A DNA stretch of 64,000 bases from a virus (IMGVR_UViG_2571042390_000001); one strand, 5' to 3'. Counted from the first letter of the stretch, positions 4,519 through 59,954 are shown. Notes: a model not told the origin generated them from the letters alone. Translations and numbers: made by a program.

Positions 4519-6436
4519 CAATCCTTTACGAATTAATATTCAGTCTACTTTTGCTGATACGATCCCCGGCTATGTGCCAAGTCGCTGGTCTTCAGAAGAA
4601 TTAAGCGAAGATGACCTGATTTTTGAGGCGGCGACCTTAGAAGATATTGAGCTTGCCTATATGGGCAATGAAATTCTGGTTGTGTCTGACGAAGCTATGT
4701 TTGAGTCCATAACTACAACCAGAATTCGGTTAGCTCAAACAATGCGAGCTTTCGTCCGTGCGCTGAATCGTGGCCTGAATGGTACGAATATTATGGCAGG
4801 GACTGATGAAGCCGGGACCGATGAAAATGGACGTAATTGTATTGGTGGTGCGATTATCGGTCGTGTACGTCGGGTAGCTAATATCCCTGTTTTGACCGCG
4901 CAGATACCGCTTACTGACGGGCAGAGTACAAGCATAATTTTCCACTCTCCAACAGCTGACGGGGCAAAAATAAAGAGTAACGACGAGCTTGTTGCATTTC
5001 AGTTTTTACTTAATAAGCGTAACGTAACTCACGTTGTCGCCCCGATTGGTGGGAGAGATGTTTCTTTAAGCCAGGTATGCCAGGCGCTATCTAATTTGAT
5101 TGAGCGTAACAGCGAAAAATTTAAGAAAGCAAAAGAGCGCCAGGACAAAATGAAGGCAGATATTGAGAGTTATCTCAATGAAGCAGATAAACTGGCAGAA
5201 GAACGGTCAATAATGATTGATCAGGTGGACGTTGCGCAACGTGGGCTGACTGAAAAGCGTGCTGCTCTTACGGAGATGCAAAAAAAACTTGATGCCCAGA
5301 AAGCCATCAACGAGGAATTACAAGAAAAACGCGATAAATTGTTGTCTGCTAAAGGTGAAAAAACGAAGGAACGAGCGTTTAGTGACCAGCTGCGACATGT
5401 AAAACATAATCTTGCCATTGACGGAAAAACAGTGCTGGATAATGGCGCTGAAGTTAATTATATCACGTCCGGCAGTGACAATTTCGTTACGATAGTAGCA
5501 CCTGAAGGTAAATTCAGTATTGATGCCAGTGCTGTCAAAGGAGGCAGTTTGGCAGATGCTGCAACCAAATTACTTAAAGCCTACCGAGAGCATAACGCAG
5601 ATAAATATAAAGTTGATGTGTTACCAGGCCAGCAGGAAGACCCCGAACCACCACAGACAGACCCCGAGACGAACCCAGTATCACAACCAGAGAGCCAGGA
5701 TGTAGGTAAATACCACTATGCACTTCAATCTCGCCCGGCTGGTGTTGGTGCTGTGCCGGATGGAAATAAAGCCGTGCTTGATCGTCCTGACCAGGCTGAT
5801 CAGTATTACGAATATGCTCGTCACGGTATCATTACGTATGACCGTAAACTGACAGATGAAGAAGTCAGCCAGTACGAGTTGCTCTATCTTCCTGATGAAG
5901 ATGAGCTGAAAGATTTTGCAGGCCAATTGGTTGTGTCCAGCATGTCGAAACATATTGATGGCTATGTAGACCTGTTTGGCAGTGACCTGAAAACATTCAA
6001 GGCGCAAGTGAAAATTCTTTTCCGCAAAGCGTTTCCAAACGTGGCGTATCCACTTGGTGATGGGGAGAACCTTTTCATTATGGACGTGTATAACGCCCTT
6101 CAAAATCATTCAAGCGAAGTAAAAACAGAGCATGTGGTTGAGCCGGAATCACAACCACAACCAGCACCAGAACAGGAGCCGGAGCCAGAAGAAGCTGGTG
6201 AATCAGCAAGTGAAGCTGATCAGGAGGCAGATAAAGCACTGGAGTACCTGAAATCCGTGCCGGAGCAGTTTACATCCCGCGATCTGACGGTCATCAGTGC
6301 TGAACTTGATCATGTGCAGGAAGCAGCAAACGCTCTAATCAGCGCAGGTCGATACGACGAGAACGAAGCCACTGTTGGTGCAGCAGTTGACTACCTGATC
6401 AACATTCTGGCTGAAATTCAGCAGGGAGGTGCTTAA
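4511..6436 (+). CDS. Large virion-type protein, DarA-like by size and operon position
   Basis: About 642 aa; GGAGG RBS 7 nt upstream of ATG 4511; coiled-coil core and Pro/Glu-rich linkers (EDPEPPQTDPETNPVSQPESQ, EPESQPQPAPEQEPEPEE). Confidence 0.5.
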   Translation: MINNPLRINIQSTFADTIPGYVPSRWSSEELSEDDLIFEAATLEDIELAYMGNEILVVSDEAMFESITTTRIRLAQTMRAFVRALNRGLNGTNIMAGTDEAGTDENGRNCIGGAIIGRVRRVANIPVLTAQIPLTDGQSTSIIFHSPTADGAKIKSNDELVAFQFLLNKRNVTHVVAPIGGRDVSLSQVCQALSNLIERNSEKFKKAKERQDKMKADIESYLNEADKLAEERSIMIDQVDVAQRGLTEKRAALTEMQKKLDAQKAINEELQEKRDKLLSAKGEKTKERAFSDQLRHVKHNLAIDGKTVLDNGAEVNYITSGSDNFVTIVAPEGKFSIDASAVKGGSLADAATKLLKAYREHNADKYKVDVLPGQQEDPEPPQTDPETNPVSQPESQDVGKYHYALQSRPAGVGAVPDGNKAVLDRPDQADQYYEYARHGIITYDRKLTDEEVSQYELLYLPDEDELKDFAGQLVVSSMSKHIDGYVDLFGSDLKTFKAQVKILFRKAFPNVAYPLGDGENLFIMDVYNALQNHSSEVKTEHVVEPESQPQPAPEQEPEPEEAGESASEADQEADKALEYLKSVPEQFTSRDLTVISAELDHVQEAANALISAGRYDENEATVGAAVDYLINILAEIQQGGA

Positions 6437-6804
6437 TGACCATCTCTGTTTTAGACCGCCTGAAATTAGGTAAAGAGCTATCAGATCTAATGCAGGCGCA
6501 GAAAACGGCGCCAGTATTGCAACGCGTCACCATTGGTAAGCAGATTGTTGATGTGATGCTGAAATTGGGCTTGGGGACTGCCGCGCAACCGGCAGCGGAA
6601 CCGCAACAACAGACTGATCCTGTTGTAGATGAAGTTCCTAAGATAGTGACTGACTTCCTGGGCGGTGTGTTCACAAAGTCCACACAAATGGAATTTATTG
6701 ATGCGCTGCGTGGGATCTCAAACTATGTTGGCGAGTTCCTTACGTTGGAACAGGCAAAAGAGCAGACCATAAGCTGGGTGAAAGCCAACGGTTATGCAGG
6801 GTAA
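6436..6804 (+). CDS. Hypothetical protein (DdrA-like position)
   Basis: 122 aa; ATGA start/stop overlap with upstream gene. Confidence 0.5.
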   Translation: MTISVLDRLKLGKELSDLMQAQKTAPVLQRVTIGKQIVDVMLKLGLGTAAQPAAEPQQQTDPVVDEVPKIVTDFLGGVFTKSTQMEFIDALRGISNYVGEFLTLEQAKEQTISWVKANGYAG

Positions 6805-6807
6805 TCA

Positions 6808-6833
6808 AAGGGGCTGAAATGCCCCTTTCACTT
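6808..6833 (+). terminator. Intrinsic terminator or attenuator hairpin inside the operon
   Basis: aaggggc-tgaaat-gcccctt followed by T-rich tract. Confidence 0.45.
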
Positions 6834-6897
6834 TCCTGTAAGTCCATAAATCACACACTTTTTACACTTCCTGCTTTCTATGTAAGGGGAGTGTATT

Positions 6898-9800
6898 TTG
6901 AACAAGTCAGTTACTTCCGCGCTATCCGAAGCAGCAGACATTAACAGTGTTATTGCGCTGGTTTCTTCATTAGAGAGGCGAGAAACACGCCAGGGGCGCA
7001 GTAGTTACGTAGTCACCAGTAAAGGGGCAGAGGTAAAGACGGCTTTTAAGGTCGTTGATGCCAGCAGTCTGATCATTTCGAACAACCTTGACGGTACGAT
7101 TAATCCGGCCTTCCCGGAAGAACTCCAGCCACGTGACCGTACACGGCTATCAAGCAAACTCCAGGTTAACCGTATTGCCTCCAATTTACGCCCGGCACAA
7201 TTAACGGATTCCGGCATGAGCAGCCACGGAGCGCCGATAGTTGGTCCGGACAACGTTGTTGAATCCGGCAACGGAAGGAGCATGGGTATCTGGCGTGCCT
7301 ATGAGCAAGGGCAGGCGGATGAATATCGCCAGTACCTGATCGATCATGCAAAAGAGTTTGGTCTGAATCCTGACGACATTTCACAAATGTCTATGCCCGT
7401 ATTGGTGCGAGAAAGACTCACAGATGTAGACCGCGCACAATTTGCCCGCGATTCAAACATCAGCGATCTGCAAGAGATGGCTGCAAGTGAAAAAGCGTAT
7501 GCGGATGCGCAATTTCTCACTGAGAGCGTCATGGCGCTATTTAATCCTTCAGATGATGGAAATCTACTGGCGCGGTCCAATGATGCGTTTATTCGTGCGT
7601 TTTTGCGCGAAATAGGTGATACGGCGACGGCAGGTTTGCTTACTGCCGATGGGCGTCCAACGAAACAACTTATCGACCGCATCCAGAATGCAATTTTTGC
7701 CAAAGCGTACAAGGATGAAAGGCTTGTTCGGCTGGTGGCGGAAGAGCCAGATCCGGAAATGCGTAACATTCTTACCGCATTAAATACGGCAGCCAGCGAT
7801 TTTGCGCAAATGCAGTCGCTTTCAGGTGATGTTCACCATGACACGGTAACCGGACTGGTAGACGGTATAGAGCAATTGAATGGTCTGGATAAACAGGCTA
7901 TTGCCGCGCTACAGGAAGCAATTAACCTTGTTCGTGAAGCAAAAGATAACGGTCAGGCAGTAGAAGAGGTGATCGCACAGCGTGGATTGTTTGGAGATAG
8001 CACTCCGGAAGCAGAAGCGCTTGCTCTGTTTATTGTTGCCAACAACCGAAGCGCTAAGCGAATGGGGGCAGCTTTCAAGAAACTGGCGCAAAAAATTAAC
8101 GATGAACTTATTCACCAGCAACAAGCGTTAGGCGATATGTTCGGCGGCGGAGATGTCGATCTGCGTAGCATTTTATCTGCCGTTTCTGATGAAATTGAGG
8201 CTGAGTATGGCGAAGGTAAAGGGCTTAATTTCGCCATGTTTGAATCGGTTTCAGGAGAGGTCGAACCATACATTTCAAAGCTAATTGCTGATGCGACCAG
8301 CGTGGAGGACTTGATCCGAATCGTGAAGGTGTCAGAAAAAATTAAGGAGTCCGCAAAAAAAATAAAGCGCAATGTATTTTTGGAACTTGGTTTTTATATT
8401 CGCAATGTCACCGTTAATGAGATTAAGGAGTGGGCTAAACGTTATGGATACAGCGACGCTGTGTTAACAACGATGTTATTGTCTTATCAACGCAGCAATT
8501 TTTATGCTAACGCACTGCGTGACGCGATTGAAAAAGGAGATGAAGCTCCTTCGCTCGCAGATGAAAGAAATATTGATTGTGATATTGAAACGTTTTGCAA
8601 CATATCAGAAGAAGGCGTGCCCGCTGAACAATTTATACGTGTTTTACATAATGCAGCAAAACATATTCCTGATGACTTTAGTATTGATGAATTGCGCAAT
8701 GGTTGTCTTGTTTGGTTAGGTAACTATTTAAAATCTCCAGCGTCTATTGCAGAGAAAACAGCTTTAAGATTTAGAAAGGAAATGAATAAAGCTGGAAGCG
8801 CAGAAGAGATGGTGTGCATAATCCAAAATACTTTGAAGTTATTCAAAAAGAGCTTGCATAATATCGACGATATTATGGCGGCTGGTAGGAAAATAACAGC
8901 CAGTGTCGGAGTTAGCTCTGAACTAACGGCAGAGGAGATCGCTGATGCGTATATTGAGACACTTGTCAGGCTTAAGGAGATAGTGGAATTAGCAGAGCAT
9001 TCCTCATATTACGGAATCAAGGAGCGTGTTGACTTTACTATAGAACAAATCAATAAAGTTAGGTCAAATAAGGAAAAACTCACTGACTACCTTGCTGAGG
9101 TTTTGCACCAGAATGATCATGGGATTGGATATGATCTGAAAAAAATGCTTGTTTTTAATCTGGACATACCGGAAGACTTGCAAGCAGAACTATATGAAAT
9201 AGCTTCATTAACACGTGGACAAAAAGCCTATCCTAATGCGCTTGAAAATGTAGTACATAAAAAAGTCAGAGCCGCATTTGACATGATTCTTGAATCGTCA
9301 AATGTGTCACATGACCAGTCTAAGGAATGGAGTCGTGGGATTGCTATTTCTGATGAAGCAGAGCAGTTAAGTGGTCACGATAATGAAACTTTCTCCCGTA
9401 AAGCATACAGTATTCGCGAGACGATTGAAAAAGCCTATATTATTTCAGGAGGGACTTTATCTACATTAAAAAATATTAACCACAAGAACAATGTTCGTGC
9501 TTTTGCAAGTCGAAATGGGAATATAACAATTGATGCTAATAGTGATCACGAGCGTGTATTATGGCATGAAATAGGTCACCATATAGAACATTCAAATCCC
9601 CATCTATTGGAGAGGGCCAAAGCCTTCATTAAATCAAAAACTAACGGTAAAGTTTCTTATCATAATATTGGTAGCCGTGGCAGTGCTGAGTATTTGGTGC
9701 GAACCGACCTAAGTCATGGATATATGTCTAAAATTTATATGGAAAATACGGTAAGTTCTGTCAGCGGCAGATTTATATCAAAGCCACCTGCATTAAGCAA

Positions 9801-14963: not shown

Positions 14964-15289
14964 AATGTATGATCTGCATCATCGACTGAAGTCATCCATT
15001 GCTGAAATTTTTAGTTGATCTTCCATGTTTTCAGGCTTATATTCATGCCGTCGTAGCAAATTCTGCGACCGGGTTTGACAGCCTGAATGTTAGTGCGGAC
15101 AACCGCAGATTTCCGATATTGCGGTATTTTTGTGTCCGTAAACCGCGTTACGCCCGAATTATGGTGGGGCGTGATGGGGAGGCTTCGGCCTGCTGGTTTC
15201 ACTAACGCCAGTCTGTCAACCCTGTCACGTCCTGCCACCTGTTTGACAGCGGGTGGCAGGTTGTTAAACCTGTTAGTGAGGCCGTAACT

Positions 15290-15514
15290 ATGGTTAATGC
15301 CAATCCTTGCTCACGTCCAGAATTCATCTGGCGTTTCCACTCCCTGCAAAAACGCTGCGATCACTTCGCAATTGCCGCAACCGAAAAAGAAGCCCGTTCT
15401 CTGATCCCTGATCAGCATGGTGTTCTTACTGGTCGTTTCTCTACTTCCCCACAACCAAACACTAATCCCTGGTATCGCAATATTACCAATCCCGGCATTG
15501 CGGAGGCTCACTGA
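15290..15514 (+). CDS. icd: Icd-like small protein (copy 1)
   Basis: 74 aa; shares FIWRF, AATE and EARS segments with the 71-aa ORF at 55564-55779; directly precedes an antirepressor-like gene. Confidence 0.5.
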   Translation: MVNANPCSRPEFIWRFHSLQKRCDHFAIAATEKEARSLIPDQHGVLTGRFSTSPQPNTNPWYRNITNPGIAEAH

Positions 15515-16221
15515 TGGGTATCTGCATTCTCGAAAAACTATCAATGACCAGCATTGAGATTGCGGAGCTGGTGGGAAGCCAACACTCTGACGTTAAACGT
15601 AGTATTGAGCGTATGGTTGCTCGAAGCATTATCCGAAAACCGCCAATGGCTGTTTTCGAAAAAATCAATAACTTAGGATTGCGTCGTGGCGTTGAGGCTT
15701 ACGTCTTCGAAGGCGAGCAAGGCAAACGAGACAGCATCATTGTCGTCGCGCAGCTCTCTCCCGAATTCACCGCCCGGCTGGTGGACCGCTGGCGCGAACT
15801 GGAAGAACAAGTACGCCAGCCGTTGACCGAAATAGAGATGATCGCTGCAATGGCTGCGAATGCAGTTCAGCAGCAAAAGCTGATTCATGCTGTTGAGTCA
15901 AAGGTTAGCCAGGTCGCTGAAACCGTCGAGCAAATAAAGAAAGGCAATATTCCGGAAGGCTACATTGGCTACCGCCAGTTGGCGGCGAAATGCGGCCTGA
16001 CTGAAGCCAAATGCCGAAACCTTGTCAACGCTTACCGGATTCCCACCGATACACATGAGTTTTTGACTCCAGAGGGGGTATTGTCGCGTCGTTCCATCGT
16101 GGCCTTATCTCCCTTCATGAATGCTTTTAACCGGATGATGTCGGAGGCTGAACACCGAGGAAAACGCTGGTATCACCCCAAAATGGGGCAATTCCAGGTG
16201 ATCGGTTGGGGAGGTGAGTGA
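15514..16221 (+). CDS. ant: Antirepressor-like protein (copy 1)
   Basis: 235 aa; N-terminus MTSIEIAELVGSQHSDVKRSIERMVA; C-terminal segment EGYIGYRQLAAKCGLTEAKCRNLVNAYRIPTDTHEFLTPEG nearly identical to 55779-56720. Confidence 0.7.
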   Translation: MGICILEKLSMTSIEIAELVGSQHSDVKRSIERMVARSIIRKPPMAVFEKINNLGLRRGVEAYVFEGEQGKRDSIIVVAQLSPEFTARLVDRWRELEEQVRQPLTEIEMIAAMAANAVQQQKLIHAVESKVSQVAETVEQIKKGNIPEGYIGYRQLAAKCGLTEAKCRNLVNAYRIPTDTHEFLTPEGVLSRRSIVALSPFMNAFNRMMSEAEHRGKRWYHPKMGQFQVIGWGGE

Positions 16222-16426: not shown

Positions 16427-16452
16427 GCCCCGGCCTGGCCGGGGCTTTTTTC
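16427..16452. terminator. Bidirectional intrinsic terminator
   Basis: gccccgg-cctgg-ccggggc followed by TTTTTT. Confidence 0.7.
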
Positions 16453-16936
16453 ATGCCTCATTAGTTGAGGTTGCTGCGTCTCCGACTGGTAACAGGGCGG
16501 TATTGCGTGGTTCGCCAGCAGGCCAGCGATAGCCAGACACTCTTGATGTTGGGAATGCGCGAATATTAACCGCATCCCCCTGGTTCCCACCCAGGACAAG
16601 CAGATCGCCATTGGCGCGGCGTCCGACAACGAAGCCTACGTGCCCACCGCCTACGCGGGTAAATACAACGATACATCCGTATGCCGGTGTATCTAATTTC
16701 TCGCCCCAATCCAGATAGGATTTTGCCGACTCAAATCTTGTTGAGCGAATGCCTACACGTTCCAGCATTGCACCGACAAATGCTGCGCACCACGGCGTTT
16801 CATCGTCTTTAATTCCGCCGCGCTTGATGTCGCGCCAGAACTGAACGATTTCAGGGTTGTGTTTAGCGCCTTTTATTTCAGTCAAGCCAATGTGCTTACG
16901 GGCTTCAATTAGCCAGCGAGGTTCAATGTTTGCCAT
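16451..16936 (-). CDS. Putative papain-like (CHAP / NlpC-P60-like) peptidase
   Basis: 161 aa; candidate catalytic Cys in TPWCAAFVGAM and His in GGGHVGFVVG. Confidence 0.45.
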   Translation of the reverse strand: MANIEPRWLIEARKHIGLTEIKGAKHNPEIVQFWRDIKRGGIKDDETPWCAAFVGAMLERVGIRSTRFESAKSYLDWGEKLDTPAYGCIVVFTRVGGGHVGFVVGRRANGDLLVLGGNQGDAVNIRAFPTSRVSGYRWPAGEPRNTALLPVGDAATSTNEA

Positions 16937-47616: not shown

Positions 47617-48148
47617 TGACTGCCTCCTTCTTAATCAGTTTACACAGGTGCTCCACAGCCACAGAGAGTGCATCCACCGCTCGTTTATCCAGACGCGGGG
47701 CCAGAGCAAGCAGTTCATTTATTGCAATCTGAATACCATGCTCCGCCGCCAGCGCCGCGCGATTGCTCTCCAGCTCTGCAATGCGCTGTTTTGCGGTATC
47801 AAGTTCAATCGATAATTTTTCCAACTGCTCTTTATGCTTCTTGTATTCCTGATATGCGTGCCAGGACTGACCTTTGCGCACACTATCAGTAATATCAGTA
47901 ATCTGTTCTGGTGTTAGAGTGGTCAGTGGCTGTGCTGGGAAAATCAGCACTTTCCCGGAATCCCAATCAAAACCAGCGTGAATTGACTGAACCTCAACTG
48001 AGGGTGTTGAACCAATGCTGCCAGGCGAATGAACAACGATCGTTACATCCATATCGCGACGATGGCTGTGGTTGTTGGACAAAATACGATTCAACAAAAT
48101 ACGATTCACCAACTCAGAAAATTTGGAGAATTTCATGCGGAGCCTCAA
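47603..48148 (-). CDS. Hypothetical coiled-coil protein
   Basis: 181 aa; contains an in-frame 15-bp tandem duplication near the 5' end. Confidence 0.45.
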   Translation of the reverse strand: MRLRMKFSKFSELVNRILLNRILSNNHSHRRDMDVTIVVHSPGSIGSTPSVEVQSIHAGFDWDSGKVLIFPAQPLTTLTPEQITDITDSVRKGQSWHAYQEYKKHKEQLEKLSIELDTAKQRIAELESNRAALAAEHGIQIAINELLALAPRLDKRAVDALSVAVEHLCKLIKKEAVSEQN

Positions 48149-48555
48149 TATGCAAAATAGACCGTTGCCACGCCGTTATAGTGATCAAACGATACGGCGT
48201 TTACTTCATAACTGGCCGGGAGCTTCGAGCCAAGAACGTATCCGGGCCACGTTTTCCATGGAATTTCTCTATTCTCACTACCCCCATATACCGTACATCC
48301 AAGTGAACCTACAGCTTCATTAGAACGCGTGCCGCACGTTATGAATCCCAGATTTTGCTTACTGCTCTTAATGGTGATTGAGTGAACGCTGGCTGATGCA
48401 TTAGCAGCACGCTGTGCCTGTTGGTTTGCGATATTCGCAGAGTTCGCAGCAGCTACAGCAGCCGTAGTCGCGGCGGTAGAGGCTACAATAGCTGCTGAAG
48501 CATGCACTTGTTGGATATTCACCAACAATGCCGCGATAAAAATCATCTTCTTCAC
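48145..48555 (-). CDS. Secreted protein
   Basis: 136 aa; signal peptide MKKMIFIAALLVNIQQVHA; Ala/Asn-rich region; two Cys. Confidence 0.5.
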   Translation of the reverse strand: MKKMIFIAALLVNIQQVHASAAIVASTAATTAAVAAANSANIANQQAQRAANASASVHSITIKSSKQNLGFITCGTRSNEAVGSLGCTVYGGSENREIPWKTWPGYVLGSKLPASYEVNAVSFDHYNGVATVYFAY

Positions 48556-54173: not shown

Positions 54174-54752
54174 ATGCAGAAACAGAGTTATTGGGAGAAA
54201 CAGAGACAAAAAGCCATGCAAAAATTGGCTGACCCGGCCTGGCGAGAGGAACAAAGGGCAAAGCGCCTTCAACAAGCTCAACGCCAGCAGCAGCGAGCGA
54301 GAGAAAAAGCCGCATCGCCTGAATATCGGCAAAAGAAAATTGAAAAAGCAAAGCAATATGAACAGCGGAGAAAAGATAAAGCTGTATCCGCTCCGTCCAA
54401 AAAAACACGCACGTCACGCGGCCTGAAAGGCAGATCACTCACAGCCGATGAACGCCGGATACAGACCGCTATCGGTGCTCTCCCCTGCATTGCCTGCCAT
54501 ATTCACGGGCAACATAGCCCAGTGGTATCCCTGCACCATATCTTCGGGAGAACGGCAGAGAACGCGCATAAATATGTCCTCCCTTTGTGTAAATGGCACC
54601 ACCAGTACGCAGCGCCAGCCGAGGTCAGAGAACAATATCCCTGGCTGGTCCCTGTTCATGCTGACGGAAAAATAGGCGGAAAAGCAGATTTCATGCGGCA
54701 CAATGCCGATGAAATGACGTTGTATCAGATGGCGATTGAGTTGATAAATTAG
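54174..54752 (+). CDS. ref: Ref-like HNH endonuclease (recombination enhancement function)
   Basis: 192 aa; basic N-terminal region and HNH-type core LPCIACHIHGQHSPVVSLHHIFGRTAENAHKYVLPLCKWHH. Confidence 0.75.
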   Translation: MQKQSYWEKQRQKAMQKLADPAWREEQRAKRLQQAQRQQQRAREKAASPEYRQKKIEKAKQYEQRRKDKAVSAPSKKTRTSRGLKGRSLTADERRIQTAIGALPCIACHIHGQHSPVVSLHHIFGRTAENAHKYVLPLCKWHHQYAAPAEVREQYPWLVPVHADGKIGGKADFMRHNADEMTLYQMAIELIN

Positions 54753-54767: not shown

Positions 54768-55389
54768 AGTTGAATTGAAAAACTCTCCGATGTACATTCA
54801 CTACCGATTGGCACACCGGTCAACTTTTTGAGACAAACTGTTTAGTTTTTCGTATTATTGCCTCCGCCATACCTATGGCGGTGCAATATAGGTGGCTGAA
54901 AAGCCCCCGTTGACTCACGGTGTTCCAGCCTTTATTGCGCCGCCACCAGACCGTGGAACAGTCGATGGCGGCTCCGAAAGCAAGGAGTCACAACACTATG
55001 AACAACTACAGTCTTTTCCCATCACTCGTCTTCCACCACTCACGCGATAATCTGCATTCTTTGCTCGCGCCGGGGGTGTCAAAATGACTGTTCGCTACCT
55101 CAACTTTCAAATCAAGAACATTACTGGCGGTTGCTATGACTGGTTTGTCACTCTCGGAAAAGAAGTGATCACCGGGAAGCTGGATGAAGTGAAAGCTAAA
55201 GCAATGGCCTACGCCTGCAAGCAAGTCAGGAAGAAATCCGCCAAAGCATAAAATACTGACTGTTGCGCCCTGGCATTATCGTGGGGTATATTTCTACGGC
55301 ACCTTAGAAAAACGGGTGCCGGGATTGGAACCCCGGATAATGTCAAAGGCGACACAGACGCCGAACGCGTCTTTTTTTGTGTCATGCCA

Positions 55390-55560
55390 TCGCACAGCCA
55401 TACTTAGCGTTTAGCTCAGAGATCAATGGTAGTGCTGGCTGGGCTGCCGAAAGGCAGGCCGGTTCCCTTTGACGCCGGTAGTTCCAACCCAGTCAGTGCT
55501 ACCGCCATTGAGATTGGAACCTCACGCGGTAGCTCCTTAACTTAGTCAAAGGAGGCTGCC
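55390..55560 (+). ncRNA. Candidate c4-type antisense regulatory RNA locus; boundaries not defined
   Basis: ORF-free, hairpin-rich leader between operator and icd-like gene, where P1 places c4; no sequence match verified. Confidence 0.2.
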
Positions 55561-55563
55561 AAT

Positions 55564-55779
55564 ATGGCTACTATCCCTACCCCAACTCATTCTGAATTTA
55601 TCTGGCGTTTCTATTCCTGCCAAAAACACCTGTATATCTGCGTCATGGCTGCTACCGAAGCAGAGGCGCGCTCATACCTTCCCGAAGAACCCTGCATTTT
55701 TGCTGCTCGCTTCACTCTTGATGCGATGGAGATCCTCAATTACTGGAATCTGCCGATGAACTGCGTGGAGGTGCACTGA
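55564..55779 (+). CDS. icd: Icd-like small protein (copy 2)
   Basis: 71 aa; EFIWRFYSCQKH ... AATEAEARSYLPEE; strong RBS aaggagg. Confidence 0.6.
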   Translation: MATIPTPTHSEFIWRFYSCQKHLYICVMAATEAEARSYLPEEPCIFAARFTLDAMEILNYWNLPMNCVEVH

Positions 55780-56720
55780 TGAATCTGTCCATCTCTCAAA
55801 AAGCGACAATGACCAGTATTGAGATCGCGGAACTGGTGGGAAGTCGTCACTCTGATGTTAAACGCAGCATCGAAAGACTTGTTGCTAAAGGAGTTATCCA
55901 ACATACGCCATTGGCTACAGTTGAGAATAATCAATCACTTAGCCCTAATAAATACACAAAAGCCTATTTCTTCGAAGGCGAACAAGGCAAGCGCGATAGT
56001 ATTGTCGTCGTCGCGCAGCTCTCTCCCGAATTTACCGCCCGGCTGGTGGACCGCTGGCGCGAACTGGAGAATGCCCGGGTACAGTTAAAATCAAAAGCCG
56101 AAATCCTGGCTGAAATGGCGCAAATGCATCTTGAGCATGAACGCCGGATCAACGCCGTAAATGCCCAGGTAGCCGAGGTATCGGCACAAGTGTCCAGGGT
56201 CGCTGAAACCGTTGAGCAAATCAAGAAAGGCAATATGCCGGAAGGCTACATTGGCTACCGCCAGCTGGCGGCGAAATGTGGCCTGACTGAAGCCAAATGC
56301 CGTAACCTTGTCAACGCTTACCGGATTCCCACCGATACACATGAGTTTTTGACCCCCGATGGCTTGCTTGCGCGACGCTCCATTGTGGCCCTTGCCCCCT
56401 TCCGGAAAGCCTTTAAGCAGGTGATGTCGGAGGCAGAACCACGCAATAAACGCTGGTATCATCCAAAGATGGGGATGTTTCAGGCAATCCACCATCCTGT
56501 GCCTGAAAGCCCAAAGGATAATCTGTCACTACATACCGCCAGAGAGAAGATCAGGACTGGATACGCAACAGTGTGTCGTCGTTCTTCCTGGCCTGAAGGT
56601 ATATGGGTGTGGCCCGAAGGTGGATCACGAAAGCACTGGCGCACCATCCGTGACGGGAAAATCCATGCTATTGATTTAGCTCCAGAGGATGTTATTGCTA
56701 TGGACTGGATTGTTAGTTAA
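55779..56720 (+). CDS. ant: Antirepressor-like protein fused to a C-terminal DUF2829-like domain (copy 2)
   Basis: 313 aa; N-terminus MTSIEIAELVGSRHSDVKRSIERLVA; C-terminal extension VCRRSSWPEGIWVWPEG ... DVIAMDWIVS. Confidence 0.75.
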   Translation: MNLSISQKATMTSIEIAELVGSRHSDVKRSIERLVAKGVIQHTPLATVENNQSLSPNKYTKAYFFEGEQGKRDSIVVVAQLSPEFTARLVDRWRELENARVQLKSKAEILAEMAQMHLEHERRINAVNAQVAEVSAQVSRVAETVEQIKKGNMPEGYIGYRQLAAKCGLTEAKCRNLVNAYRIPTDTHEFLTPDGLLARRSIVALAPFRKAFKQVMSEAEPRNKRWYHPKMGMFQAIHHPVPESPKDNLSLHTAREKIRTGYATVCRRSSWPEGIWVWPEGGSRKHWRTIRDGKIHAIDLAPEDVIAMDWIVS

Positions 56721-56779: not shown

Positions 56780-57091
56780 ATGAAAAAAATAGATTTCACT
56801 TATTCTGCCGCCACACTTGAGCGGCGCTTCACCCTCATTAGAGAGTTGGAACTGTCAAAAGTCTGGTATCAAATCCTACTGGATGAAGAGTTTTCACTGA
56901 TGGTTATAGCAGAAAAATTGGCTATGCCTAATGACCGGCACAAGGTCATAGCCAGCCTCGATCTGGTGACAAACAGATACTGGGAAACAGAGGAACTACA
57001 TGAGGCGGGAGTAATTCGTGACCTGATGGAGAATTCCGTTCCCCGCCGCTATCGTGCAGGGAACGGCATCTCCGTGGTTAAAGGTGTTTAA
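56780..57091 (+). CDS. Hypothetical protein
   Basis: 103 aa. Confidence 0.45.
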   Translation: MKKIDFTYSAATLERRFTLIRELELSKVWYQILLDEEFSLMVIAEKLAMPNDRHKVIASLDLVTNRYWETEELHEAGVIRDLMENSVPRRYRAGNGISVVKGV

Positions 57092-57480
57092 AGCTCACCT
57101 GCGCGCTGTTTTTCAAGCACAGATTTAACATTTGGCGCTTTCCCTTTAAAAGAATGGAAAGTGCCACATTTTTCTGTTTTAACCTCGCGCAGAGCTTCGC
57201 CATCGGCGTTCTGCCATTGATGGGATAATGTCATATCACCGCGAGAAGGAACATCCAGCGAGTACAGCGTGTAAGTTCCCCCCATCTCCGCATACTCCTG
57301 GAACACATAGCTCATTACGTCAGATTCAGTTTTTCGGTGTGCGTTATCAACCTTATTCCCATTCAGAAATATGGCATCTGGATAGATTTTTATATCAAAC
57401 CTACCGCACTTAACTTGTAAATTTCCGGCGCTCGCGATCAAAGGGAAAGACGCCAGTAAAGCAATAGCCAATCTTTTCAA
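57088..57480 (-). CDS. Secreted protein
   Basis: 130 aa; signal peptide MKRLAIALLASFPLIASA. Confidence 0.55.
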   Translation of the reverse strand: MKRLAIALLASFPLIASAGNLQVKCGRFDIKIYPDAIFLNGNKVDNAHRKTESDVMSYVFQEYAEMGGTYTLYSLDVPSRGDMTLSHQWQNADGEALREVKTEKCGTFHSFKGKAPNVKSVLEKQRAGEL

Positions 57481-57500
57481 TTCTGCCTCCGCTGCGTAAC

Positions 57501-58124
57501 TTATTGCCCGTATTTTTTACACCATTGCTCTGCCATTTGTTTGGCTAAAGGCCCGGCTACTGCACTGTATTCTGCTGTTTTACTTTGCACACATGAAGCA
57601 GATGGTTTTTTATTTCGCTGCTCGGTTAGTTTGCGCTCATAAGCCATCATGCTATCGAACCCGGCAATATCACTTTGGCGAAGCATTCCCTTTTTAACCA
57701 AAAATTGCTGCCCCTCGGGCACCAGCGCAAGCATAAAAAGTGGTTGTAATAACTCACCTAATCCTTGCTGGCGATACACTTCGAATTGCTGCCATCCCTG
57801 ACTTAATCTGGAAAGAGTATCTTTGGTTGAATAACCTGTTTTTGTTATAGCTTTGTCCGTCAGATATGCTGTATATGCAAAAACGCAAAAGTCAGTTTTA
57901 CCAATAAACTGAGTTCCAACAGGCCGTAATGGAATGCCCTCTCTCTTGCAAAAGTCCATAATTGCCGCTTGTGAATGATCCCCACCAGCGTTATTCATAA
58001 CCTGCTGCCCTGCCCTGAATTGTGCAGGTAACGCAGTTGCATTGGCTGTATTAACAGATACGCATCCCAACATAGCCGCGAGCGCGGTCCCTAAAACCCT
58101 TAACTTCACTACACCGTCCTTCAT
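57501..58124 (-). CDS. Secreted protein or lipoprotein
   Basis: 207 aa; N-terminal hydrophobic segment with possible lipobox (AAMLGC). Confidence 0.5.
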   Translation of the reverse strand: MKDGVVKLRVLGTALAAMLGCVSVNTANATALPAQFRAGQQVMNNAGGDHSQAAIMDFCKREGIPLRPVGTQFIGKTDFCVFAYTAYLTDKAITKTGYSTKDTLSRLSQGWQQFEVYRQQGLGELLQPLFMLALVPEGQQFLVKKGMLRQSDIAGFDSMMAYERKLTEQRNKKPSASCVQSKTAEYSAVAGPLAKQMAEQWCKKYGQ

Positions 58125-58392
58125 GTAAACAAAATGAAGTTTTATGTTACAAAAACAATCAACTACATCAACATGATTTAGGCCAAATTTCGGTCAAAAA
58201 ATAAAATCCACAAAAAGTGGTTGACACTATTTTGGAAATCACAAACTGCACATAATCCATCGCGCTAACGGCTCCCGTTGAAGGTTCTTTTGACGATTAA
58301 CTTTCAGCCGAAGCGCGGTAGGGAGTCATAACGCCAAAGCAGGCCGCCATGTGCGGCCTTTTTTTGTATCCGTCATCCGTGGAGGAAGGACA

Positions 58393-59046
58393 ATGGAGAA
58401 GATAGCAATATTCAGCCTGACCACCAGCAAACCGCAAATGCTCACTGCAATACTGAAAGACGGTGCTCTCGTGATTAACGAAGTAAAACCCCTTCCCGCG
58501 TCAGCATTGGAACAAAAGCAAAAGATTCCTCCAGCTATAGCAGCCCTGCGGAAAAGCAAATTTAAGGTGCTGGTAGACGAAATTACGCCAACGATCTCCG
58601 CTGGCACCGGAGCAAGCCAGGTAACACTCAAGACACGTCATGCCGACGGCAGAGCTGCGATCATCGTAGGGATGGAAAGATACAGAGAGCTAAAACTCCA
58701 GAAGCTATTATCCCTGCCGCAAAACAATAAAGGTGCTTTCGAAATTCCCGACTCCATCGTTGACACCGAATACAACGGTAACGGAGAAGAAGTTTACCGG
58801 GTGAACTGGCAGGATATTAGGCCGGAACATATTTTGATGATCCTGTGTTGCTACGCGACCGTATACCACAATGTTGCCAGTGCGGATTACGTAGAGCAGA
58901 TGACCGGTACAGTCGAGAAAGAGCAAAAAACAGGCATACTCGCTTCGTTCCTGTCCATTATTGGGCATGAAAAAGTTAAAGCAGGCACCTCCCAGCCAAA
59001 GTCGCTGACTGGGAAAGAAGTTGATGAAGATACCGTGATACTTTGA
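58393..59046 (+). CDS. Hypothetical protein
   Basis: 218 aa from ATG 58393 after RBS ggaggaagg. Confidence 0.55.
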   Translation: MEKIAIFSLTTSKPQMLTAILKDGALVINEVKPLPASALEQKQKIPPAIAALRKSKFKVLVDEITPTISAGTGASQVTLKTRHADGRAAIIVGMERYRELKLQKLLSLPQNNKGAFEIPDSIVDTEYNGNGEEVYRVNWQDIRPEHILMILCCYATVYHNVASADYVEQMTGTVEKEQKTGILASFLSIIGHEKVKAGTSQPKSLTGKEVDEDTVIL

Positions 59047-59319: not shown

Positions 59320-59664
59320 TTGCATTTTACTCTTTCTGTGTGTAGCGTATATACACAGGTTGCACGCACGAATGGAATTATTTTGATTAAGTCATTTCGC
59401 CATAAAGGGCTTGAACGCTTTTTCAAGACAGGTTCAACCGCAGGCATTCAGGCCAAACATGCGGTTAAGCTACGCATTCAATTGACTGCGCTTAATACAG
59501 CTAAACGCCCGGACGATATGTCTGCGCCTGGATGGGAATTGCACCCTCTAAAGGGGGCGGACCTTAAAGGTCACTGGGCAATATCGGTAAACGGTAACTG
59601 GCGACTTACCTTCCGATTTGAAGGAGAAGACGCAATTCTAGTTGACTATCAGGATTATCATTGA
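59320..59664 (+). CDS. higB: HigB-type toxin (RelE/ParE superfamily); true start probably downstream of 59320
   Basis: C-terminal 92 aa [13 protein letters not shown] ... [40 protein letters not shown] matches the plasmid-maintenance-killer family. Confidence 0.7.
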
Positions 59665-59954
59665 GGAACACTATGAGTCGCATGCATAATCCCGCGCATC
59701 CAGGCGCGGTTCTTCGTGAATATTTGGGAGACATGTCAGTCACAGACGCCGCTGCGGCATTAGGCATTACTCGCACGGCGCTTTCCCGAATTCTGAATGA
59801 AAAAGCAGGTATATCTGCTGATATGGCACTTCGTCTGGAGTCCGCTCTTGGAACCAGTGCCGAAATGTGGACCGGTATGCAATCCCAGTATGAGCTTTGG
59901 GTTGCTTCGCAAACCACTCGCCCAAACATCCGTCCATTATTTTTCCACGCATAA
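59661..59954 (+). CDS. higA: HigA-type HTH antitoxin
   Basis: 97 aa; HTH region [31 protein letters not shown]; overlaps toxin stop. Confidence 0.75.

What the first reader, a model, noticed from the sequence alone, without database searches (positions are those of the whole stretch)
57088..58124. Two adjacent secreted proteins downstream of the second immunity module
Both products have N-terminal signal sequences, one with a possible lipobox. Exported phage proteins at this kind of position are often superinfection-exclusion or surface-modification factors. They are transcribed convergently with the ant gene.
Basis: inference. Interest (0 to 1): 0.35.

Follow-up and report, generated by a model that had tools for sequence, protein, structure and literature searches.

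The report
Paired periplasmic proteins in sim-like slot
Two adjacent genes of a D6/P1-like phage-plasmid encode small exported proteins of unknown fold that work as a pair and sit where related phages carry a gene related to P1 superimmunity gene simB, so they are plausible but untested blockers of incoming phages.

Summary
Two co-oriented minus-strand genes fill 57088-58124: orfA (57501-58109 from a GTG with an AAGGA ribosome site; 202 aa) and orfB (57088-57480; TTG after GGAGG; 130 aa). Both have n-h-c signal peptides with A-x-A cleavage sites that are conserved in every homologue, plus conserved cysteine pairs. Both are under purifying selection (dN/dS about 0.1).

The orfA lipobox is real in this allele. 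It is absent in several close homologues and in all distant ones, so a soluble periplasmic protein is more likely than a lipoprotein.

New here:
- The two proteins are fused into one polypeptide in Enterobacter relatives and, independently, in a metagenomic relative. They therefore act together.
- The slot between ant/pmgF and mat is a shuffling site for exported modules: orfA, orfB, a SimB-like domain, a 130-aa C-terminal domain and a third head.
- The D6 simB-like gene still carries the first ~17 codons of orfA, left by a 589-bp deletion.

Neither protein matches any Pfam, NCBIfam, PADLOC, PDB or BFVD entry. Superinfection exclusion is supported only by position and by association with SimB-family genes, not by homology to SimC or by any experiment. 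Interest is moderate.

The parts
57501..58109 (-). orfA: 202-aa exported protein (207 aa if read from the ATG at 58124). The mature part is about 178 aa, all-alpha, with 4 conserved Cys. It belongs to PHROG 12786.
   Evidence: ORF and sequence. PHROG match E 9.5e-134. Homologues and alignment. AlphaFold pLDDT 84.8 with 9 helices. dN/dS 0.08-0.14.
58038..58109 (-). orfA signal peptide, MKLRVLGTALAAMLGCVSVNTANA, with predicted SPase I cleavage after ANA. It contains a non-conserved lipobox; the Cys codon is at 58062-58064.
   Evidence: Heuristic and PS51257 match. Conservation of A-x-A|xLPA and loss of the Cys in homologues.
58117..58121 (-). AAGGA ribosome-binding site 7 nt upstream of the GTG start of orfA.
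   Evidence: Read from the sequence. 202-aa gene calls are found elsewhere.
58144..58171 (-). Weak candidate sigma-70 promoter for orfA-orfB: TTGATG, 16 nt, TAACAT (8 of 12 matches). This is inferred only.
   Evidence: Read from the sequence. It lies below the threshold of the promoter scan, which found none. It is conserved in D6.
57088..57480 (-). orfB: 130-aa exported protein. The mature part is about 112 aa, all-beta, with 2 conserved Cys. It belongs to PHROG 13864.
   Evidence: PHROG match E 2.9e-90. Homologues. AlphaFold pLDDT 70. dN/dS 0.07-0.11.
57427..57480 (-). orfB signal peptide, MKRLAIALLASFPLIASA, with predicted cleavage after ASA.
57486..57490 (-). GGAGG ribosome-binding site 5 nt upstream of the TTG start of orfB. 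It lies in the 20-nt gap after the orfA stop, so the layout is that of an operon.
   Evidence: Read from the sequence.
58073..58392 (.). Leader and intergenic region shared at 96% identity with phage D6. It contains the orfA 5' end, its promoter region and the divergent mat upstream region. Homology to D6 breaks at about codon 17 of orfA.
58336..58370 (+). Hairpin followed by a T-run. It is the first plus-strand terminator downstream of ant and the pmgF-like gene, so it lies beyond the antisense of orfB and orfA and just before mat.
56780..57091 (+). pmgF-like gene, convergent with orfB. The two stop codons overlap by 4 nt (TTAA, 57088-57091).
58393..59046 (+). mat (maturation control) homologue, divergent from orfA. 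It is the conserved right-hand border of the slot.
55299..56720 (+). Second immI-type module: isrK-like RNA (55299-55377), C4 antisense RNA (55422-55509), icd (55564-55779) and ant (55779-56720).

Best explanation
orfA and orfB form a two-gene operon carried by a D6/P1-like phage-plasmid. Both products are exported through Sec, cleaved by signal peptidase I and disulfide-bonded in the periplasm. There the helical orfA protein and the small beta-rich orfB protein act as one unit, probably as a complex.

The operon occupies a cassette slot between ant/pmgF and mat. In this slot, exported modules are exchanged by recombination behind a common promoter and leader. The modules are orfA, orfB, a SimB-like domain, a 130-aa C-terminal domain and a third head domain.

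By position and by repeated association with SimB-family genes, the most likely job is that of the P1 sim locus: a prophage-expressed periplasmic block that stops DNA of an incoming related phage after adsorption and before it reaches the cytoplasm.

Shown in silico: the genes are real and under constraint; export signals are present; the pair is functionally coupled (fusions); the cassette is mosaic.

Inferred: periplasmic rather than lipid-anchored location (about 65:35); expression in the lysogen; exclusion as the function (about 0.4).
For: - Export: n-h-c leaders, conserved A-x-A|(A/P)LPA sites, conserved Cys pairs and disordered N-termini in the models.
- Coupling, gene order: orfA followed by orfB is kept across alleles that differ by 35-45% in orfA.
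- Coupling, fusions: P0024 (Enterobacter hormaechei/cloacae, several samples, same slot next to mat) and the much more divergent P0027 each hit both PHROG 12786 and PHROG 13864.
- Selection: dN/dS is about 0.1 for both genes.
- Same slot as D6 orf79: its N-half is 52% identical to P1 SimB (E 9e-27), and it shares the leader with orfA.
- D6 is a 589-bp deletion derivative of an orfA + SimB-like arrangement.
- orfA followed by SimB-like::CTD-X occurs in L033, L042 and L043. simB-like followed by orfA::orfB occurs in L015, which mirrors P1 simB-simC.
- In both P1 and D6-like elements the exported cassette lies next to a c4-icd-ant module.
- P1 Sim causes superinfection exclusion (Kliem and Dreiseikelmann 1989, cited in PMC8546580). 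simABC are non-essential (PMC10695390).
- The literature already treats the D6 simB spot as the variable exclusion region (PMC6799933).
Against: - No sequence or profile similarity to SimC, SimB or SimA. The role of SimB itself is only 'putative accessory' in the P1 annotation.
- No SimB-like gene is present in this window.
- No PADLOC, Pfam or NCBIfam hit, and no structural neighbour, so nothing about the fold points to a mechanism.
- No convincing promoter was found, so expression in the lysogen is unproven.
- Distant orfA homologues stand alone next to an autotransporter, Ail/Lom or SslE-like genes on other plasmids. That would also fit a host-envelope role.
- Phage D6 has lost orfA, so orfA is dispensable for the phage itself.
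Confidence: 0.4

Rival explanations
1. A host-benefit (lysogenic conversion) envelope factor unrelated to phage exclusion. The periplasmic pair would protect or alter the cell envelope, for example against lysozyme, bacteriocins, serum or stress, and would be kept because it helps the carrier bacterium.
For: - Distant orfA homologues occur as single genes beside Ail/Lom and an SslE-like M60 protease (L004-L006), beside an autotransporter (L019) and on a Rep3 plasmid (L018).
- GC content is slightly lower than in the neighbouring genes.
- The pair persists in elements that lack the icd-ant module (L010-L014).
Against: - No similarity to known lysozyme inhibitors, immunity proteins or any Pfam family.
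- Almost all contexts still carry P1/D6 backbone genes (mat, pmgF, repL remnants).
- The same slot is used by SimB-family genes.
Confidence: 0.25
2. A function in the phage's own lytic cycle. This would be a periplasmic helper of lysis, DNA ejection or virion maturation, co-regulated with the divergent mat gene.
For: - Linkage of orfA to mat is kept even in a relative whose mat is only 52% identical (L019).
- orfA and mat share an intergenic control region that is 96% conserved with D6.
Against: - D6 is a viable phage that has deleted orfA and lacks orfB.
- Other relatives replace the cassette altogether.
- No Lpa-type late promoter lies upstream of orfA.
- Exported soluble proteins are not known parts of P1 morphogenesis (own knowledge).
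Confidence: 0.12
3. orfA is an outer-membrane lipoprotein that masks or inactivates a phage receptor, in the manner of T5 Llp or phi80/N15 Cor, with orfB as its helper.
For: - The window allele matches the PROSITE lipobox pattern, with Val at +2, which would favour the outer membrane.
- The Cys is kept in about five of the eight close allele clusters.
- One UniRef record is auto-named 'Lipoprotein'.
Against: - The Cys is Gly in P0002, P0003 and P0008 and is absent in P0007 and in all remote homologues, including both fusions. The downstream A-x-A site is always kept.
- There is no similarity to Cor or Llp families in Pfam or PHROGs.
Confidence: 0.1
4. The ORFs are chance or decaying reading frames without function.
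For: - RefSeq calls orfA only from an internal Met.
- Many truncated copies exist in databases.
Against: - dN/dS is about 0.1.
- Ribosome sites are strong, and homologues are conserved down to 22% identity with invariant Cys and the GYSxxDT motif.
- The AlphaFold model of orfA is confident.
- orfB with exactly this sequence is on at least 1000 contigs.
Confidence: 0.02

Closest known systems
Phage P1 sim (superimmunity) operon simA-simB-simC
   Same: - A prophage-borne cluster of small proteins with N-terminal signal peptides, placed next to a c4-icd-ant immunity module.
- It is non-essential and lies in a region that varies among P1-like elements (PMC9603915).
- SimB-family genes share operons or the same slot with orfA and orfB in relatives.
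- In L015 the order simB-like then orfA::orfB (281 aa, one leader) parallels simB then simC (264 aa, one leader).
   Different: - No detectable homology of orfA or orfB to SimA, SimB or SimC.
- The cassette lies downstream of ant and convergent to it, between ref and mat. In P1 it lies upstream of c4 and divergent from it.
- No SimB-like gene is present in this window.
- The exclusion phenotype is untested.
Phage D6 orf79 ('putative superimmunity accessory function protein', SimB-like)
   Same: - Same slot, same strand, and the same upstream region and first ~17 codons.
- Both are exported proteins.
- Both belong to one mosaic cassette system.
   Different: - The mature proteins are unrelated.
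- D6 has one 277-aa product (SimB-like domain plus a 130-aa C-terminal domain), whereas here there are two products.
- The annotated D6 start is a relic of orfA.
Lipoprotein-type exclusion factors (T5 Llp, phi80/N15 Cor)
   Same: They are small prophage- or phage-encoded envelope proteins. The orfA allele here has a formal lipobox.
   Different: - The lipobox is not conserved in the family.
- There is no sequence similarity.
- This system has two components and is probably soluble in the periplasm.
PHROG families 12786 and 13864
   Same: Full-length, near-identical matches. These are the only database families that contain the two proteins.
   Different: The families carry no function, and PHROGs does not record that the two are fused in some elements.

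Membership tests
P1 Sim (SimC) superinfection-exclusion protein | Sequence or profile homology to SimC | tested here: not met
   BLASTP E is at least 0.57 for orfA and at least 3.7 for orfB. hhalign probability is below 1%. The profiles are shallow, because the SimC family has only 4 clusters.
P1 Sim (SimC) superinfection-exclusion protein | Made as a precursor with a cleavable signal peptide and active outside the cytoplasm | tested here: met
   In silico only: n-h-c leaders, conserved A-x-A sites and conserved Cys pairs. That Sim itself is processed is from my own recollection of Maillou and Dreiseikelmann 1990.
P1 Sim (SimC) superinfection-exclusion protein | Located in the immunity region next to c4-icd-ant | tested here: inconclusive
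   The pair is adjacent to the second c4-icd-ant module, but downstream and convergent. P1 sim is upstream and divergent. Relatives L010-L014 keep the pair without icd-ant.
P1 Sim (SimC) superinfection-exclusion protein | Blocks infection after adsorption but not transfection (exclusion phenotype) | not testable with these tools
   This needs expression and phage challenge.
SimB family (P1 SimB, D6 orf79 N-domain; PHROG 14329/13054) | Homology to the DFSK(I/V)DC...NKLxCxGxYxxSxG...NSLG domain | tested here: not met
   orfA and orfB do not match this domain. D6 orf79 does (E 9e-27) and the L015 gene does. orfA and orfB are neighbours or alternatives of SimB-family genes, not members.
Bacterial lipoproteins (Lgt/LspA substrates), including Cor/Llp-type exclusion lipoproteins | Lipobox with an invariant Cys at +1 at the end of the h-region | tested here: inconclusive
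   The window allele matches PS51257. The Cys is not conserved in the family. orfB has no lipobox.
Bacterial lipoproteins (Lgt/LspA substrates), including Cor/Llp-type exclusion lipoproteins | Homology to Cor or Llp | tested here: not met
   There are no Pfam or PHROG matches other than the two unknown-function families.
PHROG 12786 (orfA) and PHROG 13864 (orfB) | Full-length profile match | tested here: met
   E 9.5e-134 over 1-207/207 and E 2.9e-90 over 1-130/130.
Known anti-phage defence systems (PADLOC-DB 2.0) | Match to any defence-system protein model | tested here: not met
   No hits at E up to 1.
LysM peptidoglycan-binding domain | Pfam PF01476 match | tested here: not met
   One of 14 family members gives E 0.057 over 15 residues at the GYSTxDT motif, and the others give nothing. 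This is chance level.

The most novel reading that the evidence does not exclude
The slot between ant/pmgF and mat in D6-like phage-plasmids is a polymorphic, modular periplasmic exclusion locus. Head domains (orfA, SimB-like, a third helical head) and tail domains (orfB, the 130-aa C-terminal domain) are recombined, split and fused behind one promoter and leader. Head domains have folds with no counterpart in the PDB or BFVD. That would amount to an entry-level 'incompatibility' code for phage-plasmids, possibly matched to alleles of the injected Sit protein.
Probability: 0.25. Interest if true: 0.6.

Novelty: new variant of a known kind. Interest (0 to 1): 0.4.

Why it matters
P1 Sim is one of the oldest known superinfection-exclusion systems, yet its mechanism and the roles of SimA and SimB are still unknown.

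If orfA-orfB is a working exclusion pair, it gives a second, unrelated protein solution in the same cassette system. It comes with a confident structural model for orfA, natural split and fused forms, and natural swaps with SimB-like modules. That material is well suited to working out what these periplasmic factors bind.

D6/P1-like phage-plasmids spread resistance genes in Escherichia, Salmonella, Shigella and Enterobacter. What decides whether a second element can enter a carrier cell therefore has practical weight.

A smaller practical point concerns annotation. RefSeq annotates orfA without its signal peptide, and D6 orf79 is annotated with a relic leader. Both hide what the proteins are.

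Tried and rejected
- tblastn of both proteins against 50,697 phage records found no match. The PHROG hits are nevertheless near-identical, so the source phage is probably absent from that collection.
- Pfam, NCBIfam, PADLOC and PDB sequence profiles gave nothing.
- Foldseek of both models against the PDB, and of orfA against BFVD, gave a best E of 0.13 to 1.2 and TM-scores below 0.41. I reject the avidin, VirK and small-lipoprotein look-alikes of orfB and the armadillo and ankyrin look-alikes of orfA as noise.
- I tested the idea that orfB, the D6 C-terminal domain and SimC share a beta domain, prompted by a GxYxxxSxD-like string. hhalign probability is below 1% for every pair.
- I tested the idea that the GYSTKDT motif is a degenerate LysM. 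Only 1 of 14 members hits weakly.
- Diversifying selection on orfA is rejected. Its low identity between elements comes with saturated dS like that of mat, and omega stays near 0.1. The pattern is a recombination breakpoint between orfA and orfB, not positive selection. One comparison (L028 orfB) gave an odd value that I attribute to a frame problem in my coordinates and ignore.
- A P1 C1 operator and an Lpa late-promoter box upstream of orfA were not found. D6-type operators are unknown to me, so this says little.
- Scans of GTDB species-representative genomes with both families found no relatives. The wide alignment A7 was too divergent for the scan.
- The P1 genome paper and the D6 genome paper are not held in the library.

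Full report
**What the window is.** The region around the finding is 100% identical to ~91-95 kb circular E. coli plasmids such as NZ_CP058619 and NZ_CP074704. It is collinear with phage D6, a P1 relative that lives as a plasmid prophage.

The gene order on the plus strand is:
- ref (54174-54752)
- an isrK-like RNA (55299-55377)
- a C4 antisense RNA (55422-55509)
- icd (55564-55779)
- ant (55779-56720)
- a pmgF-like gene (56780-57091)
- the two minus-strand ORFs of the finding
- mat (58393-59046), then a higBA pair and tail genes 26 and 25

A first C4 module lies at 15037-16221, so 'second immunity module' is a fair description.

**The two genes.** orfB is 57088-57480. It starts at a TTG that follows GGAGG by 5 nt, 20 nt after the orfA stop.

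orfA is 57501-58124 if read from the ATG. That ATG lacks a ribosome site, whereas the GTG at 58109 has AAGGA 7 nt upstream. Most public calls are 202 aa from that codon, and D6 is annotated from it too. RefSeq instead starts orfA at internal Met43 (165 aa, WP_001436217.1). That cuts off residues conserved in every homologue and must be wrong.

Pairwise Nei-Gojobori estimates give dN/dS of 0.08-0.14 for orfA and 0.07-0.11 for orfB, against 0.04-0.09 for mat. Both are therefore real, constrained genes.

**Export signals.** Both N-termini have a basic n-region, an uncharged hydrophobic core and a -3/-1 site: ASA|GN in orfB and ANA|TALPA in orfA. I had no SignalP, so I relied on comparison:
- The leaders differ between homologues, but the A-x-A (or Y-S) site and the first mature residues (A/P)LPA line up in all of them, down to 22% identity.
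- orfB homologues keep A-x-A|(G/E)N...C.
- Four Cys in orfA (59, 80, 178, 202 in the 207-aa numbering; the first pair is invariant family-wide) and two in orfB (25, 105) are conserved, as expected for periplasmic disulfides.
- AlphaFold leaves exactly the leaders disordered.
- A crude filter finds such N-termini in only 5 of the 130 ORFs of at least 90 aa in the window, two of them being this adjacent pair.

**The lipobox.** LGTALAAMLG-C fits PROSITE PS51257. The Cys is Gly in three close allele clusters and is missing in P0007 and in all remote homologues, including both fusions. The downstream signal peptidase I site is never lost. I therefore favour a soluble periplasmic protein, at about 65:35. 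A lipoprotein form of this particular allele cannot be excluded.

**Rarity and lack of database relatives.**
- orfA: 10 clusters among 5.8 billion proteins and 22 representatives among 1.84 billion.
- orfB: 11 clusters.
- Neither family is in any of 185,579 species-representative genomes.
- The cassette of this allele is in 37 of 5,426 complete E. coli genomes and 45 of 72,556 plasmids. Almost all are ~88-98 kb non-mobilizable plasmids of Escherichia, Salmonella and Shigella.
- The only family hits are PHROGs 12786 and 13864, both of unknown function. Pfam, NCBIfam, PADLOC and PDB sequences give nothing.

**Structure.**
- orfA folds confidently (pLDDT 84.8, pTM 0.70) into nine helices.
- orfB folds less confidently (pLDDT 70) into an all-beta domain.
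- Foldseek finds no significant neighbour in the PDB for either model, nor in BFVD for orfA.
- The family-wide invariant residues of orfA are C54, C75, G92-Y93-S94, T98, P123, G133 and D147 in the 202-aa numbering. This pattern suggested no known active site to me.

**The pair is one functional unit.** Among the remote orfA hits, P0024 (277 aa) and P0027 (281 aa) carry an orfA-like N-half and an orfB-like C-half in one chain. Each hits both PHROGs strongly.

P0024 is the orthologue in ~87 kb Enterobacter hormaechei/cloacae elements. It sits in the same slot next to mat and has been seen in many samples. P0027 is far more divergent and comes from another sample.

In both fusions the orfB leader is replaced by a short linker, and the C-terminal helical hairpin of orfA, with its second Cys pair, is dropped. 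Gene order orfA then orfB is also kept across alleles that differ by 35-45% in orfA. This is classic gene-fusion evidence that the two proteins work together, probably in contact.

**The slot is a cassette exchange site.** I fetched 32 loci through mat and compared them with the loci found through the homologues. Five arrangements occur upstream of mat:
1. orfA + orfB, as here.
2. The D6 type: one gene with its own leader, a SimB-like domain and a 130-aa C-terminal domain.
3. orfA followed by that SimB-like gene (L033, L042, L043).
4. A 291-aa gene with a third, unrelated head and the same 130-aa C-terminal domain (L032, L034, L037).
5. Fused orfA::orfB (L013, L014, L048).

In the small contig L015, a 106-aa simB-like gene is followed 3 nt later by the fused orfA::orfB. 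That is the order of simB and simC in P1.

The N-half of D6 orf79 is 52% identical to P1 SimB (E 9e-27). D6 and the window share 96% identity from mat through the intergenic region to about codon 17 of orfA, and then diverge completely. D6 equals the type-3 arrangement minus 589 bp, a deletion that removed orfA from that codon to its end. In line with this, the PHROG profile for the D6 protein begins at its residue 22.

Synonymous divergence shows a recombination breakpoint between orfA and orfB. Compared with L007 and L045, orfA (dS 1.8-2.0) resembles mat (dS 1.5-1.7), whereas orfB (dS 0.26-0.28) resembles pmgF (dS 0.34-0.35).

In P1 itself, ref and mat are only 78 bp apart. The whole block of the immI-type module plus the exported cassette is therefore an insertion in the D6 lineage. 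A published comparison had already noted that D6-like prophages diverge around simB, where one plasmid has 'uncharacterized hypothetical proteins' instead (PMC6799933).

**What it probably does.** None of the modules is detectably homologous to another or to SimC. The link to exclusion is therefore by association only: the same slot and leader as a SimB-family gene, shared operons with SimB-family genes in relatives, and proximity to an immI module as in P1.

P1 Sim excludes superinfecting P1 (Kliem and Dreiseikelmann 1989, cited in PMC8546580). From my own recollection, it is a processed exported protein acting after adsorption. I commit to the reading that orfA-orfB is a periplasmic two-protein exclusion factor of this kind, with about 0.4 confidence for the function. 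My confidence that it is an exported, co-acting pair is about 0.85.

The rivals are:
- **A host-envelope benefit factor.** Distant orfA homologues sit alone next to Ail/Lom, an SslE-like gene or an autotransporter.
- **A role in the phage's own lytic cycle.** This is weakened because D6 has lost orfA and lacks orfB.
- **A Cor/Llp-like lipoprotein.**

**Expression is unresolved.**
- The promoter scan found nothing. By eye there is a weak TTGATG-16-TAACAT at 58144-58171 that D6 keeps.
- There is no P1-type C1 operator or Lpa box.
- The first plus-strand terminator after ant and the pmgF-like gene is at 58336-58370. Read-through from the ant operon would therefore run antisense across both genes. 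This is a possible but untested way to shut the pair off on induction.

**Verdict.** The pair is an uncharacterised member of a mosaic sim-type cassette system, with no relative in any curated family or structure library. It is worth a modest follow-up, mainly because the natural fusions and module swaps make it experimentally tractable.

Noticed in passing
15037-16221 and 55299-56720: The window carries two C4-antisense immunity modules. The first has the Rfam c4-a1b1 target element, then C4, an icd-like gene and a 235-aa ant-like gene. The second has an isrK-type Hfq-binding RNA where the first has a1/b1, then C4, icd and a 313-aa ant.
   Followed up: partly
L001 (NZ_CP058619) 6802-7299 and 5080-5790, equivalent to window 57501-57998 and 55779-56489: RefSeq starts orfA at internal Met43 (165 aa), which removes the signal peptide. 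It also marks the ant gene as an incomplete pseudogene, although the 313-aa frame is intact in the window.
   Followed up: partly
L002 (phage D6) 5141-6037: The annotated start of D6 orf79 is a relic of orfA. D6 equals an orfA + SimB-like arrangement (L033) minus a 589-bp deletion. The real protein most likely starts at MFFIKNGK, which has its own signal peptide.
   Followed up: yes
57088-57091 and 58336-58370: The pmgF-like gene and orfB end on a shared TTAA, a 4-nt convergent overlap. The first plus-strand terminator after ant/pmgF lies beyond the antisense of both exported genes, just upstream of mat.
   Followed up: no
L032, L034, L037 3844-4719: A 291-aa exported protein occupies the same slot. 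It has a third, unrelated N-terminal domain joined to the 130-aa C-terminal domain of D6 orf79. This shows domain shuffling among the cassettes.
   Followed up: partly
L004-L006: A 57%-identical orfA homologue with a different leader stands alone on 94-168 kb plasmid contigs. Its neighbours are IS elements, an Ail/Lom gene, a RepL remnant, a pmgF-like gene and a 1525-aa SslE-like M60 protease gene.
   Followed up: no
48145-48555 (-): Another ORF has a signal-peptide-like N-terminus (MKKMIFIAALLVNIQQVHA|SA). It was flagged by the crude filter.
   Followed up: no
59320-59954 and L001 12158-12869: Two separate HigB/RelE-HigA toxin-antitoxin pairs flank the tail genes 26/25 region just right of mat.
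   Followed up: no
16451-16936 (-): A 161-aa ORF next to the first immunity module looks, by eye, like a cell-wall hydrolase. PMC6799933 mentions a predicted peptidoglycan hydrolase next to ImmI in a D6-like plasmid. I did not test this.
   Followed up: no
L052 (P1) 678-2069: In P1, ref and mat are adjacent (78 bp) and mat has a C1 operator and a late promoter. In D6-like elements 1.3-3.6 kb of immunity and exported-protein genes lie between them.
   Followed up: partly
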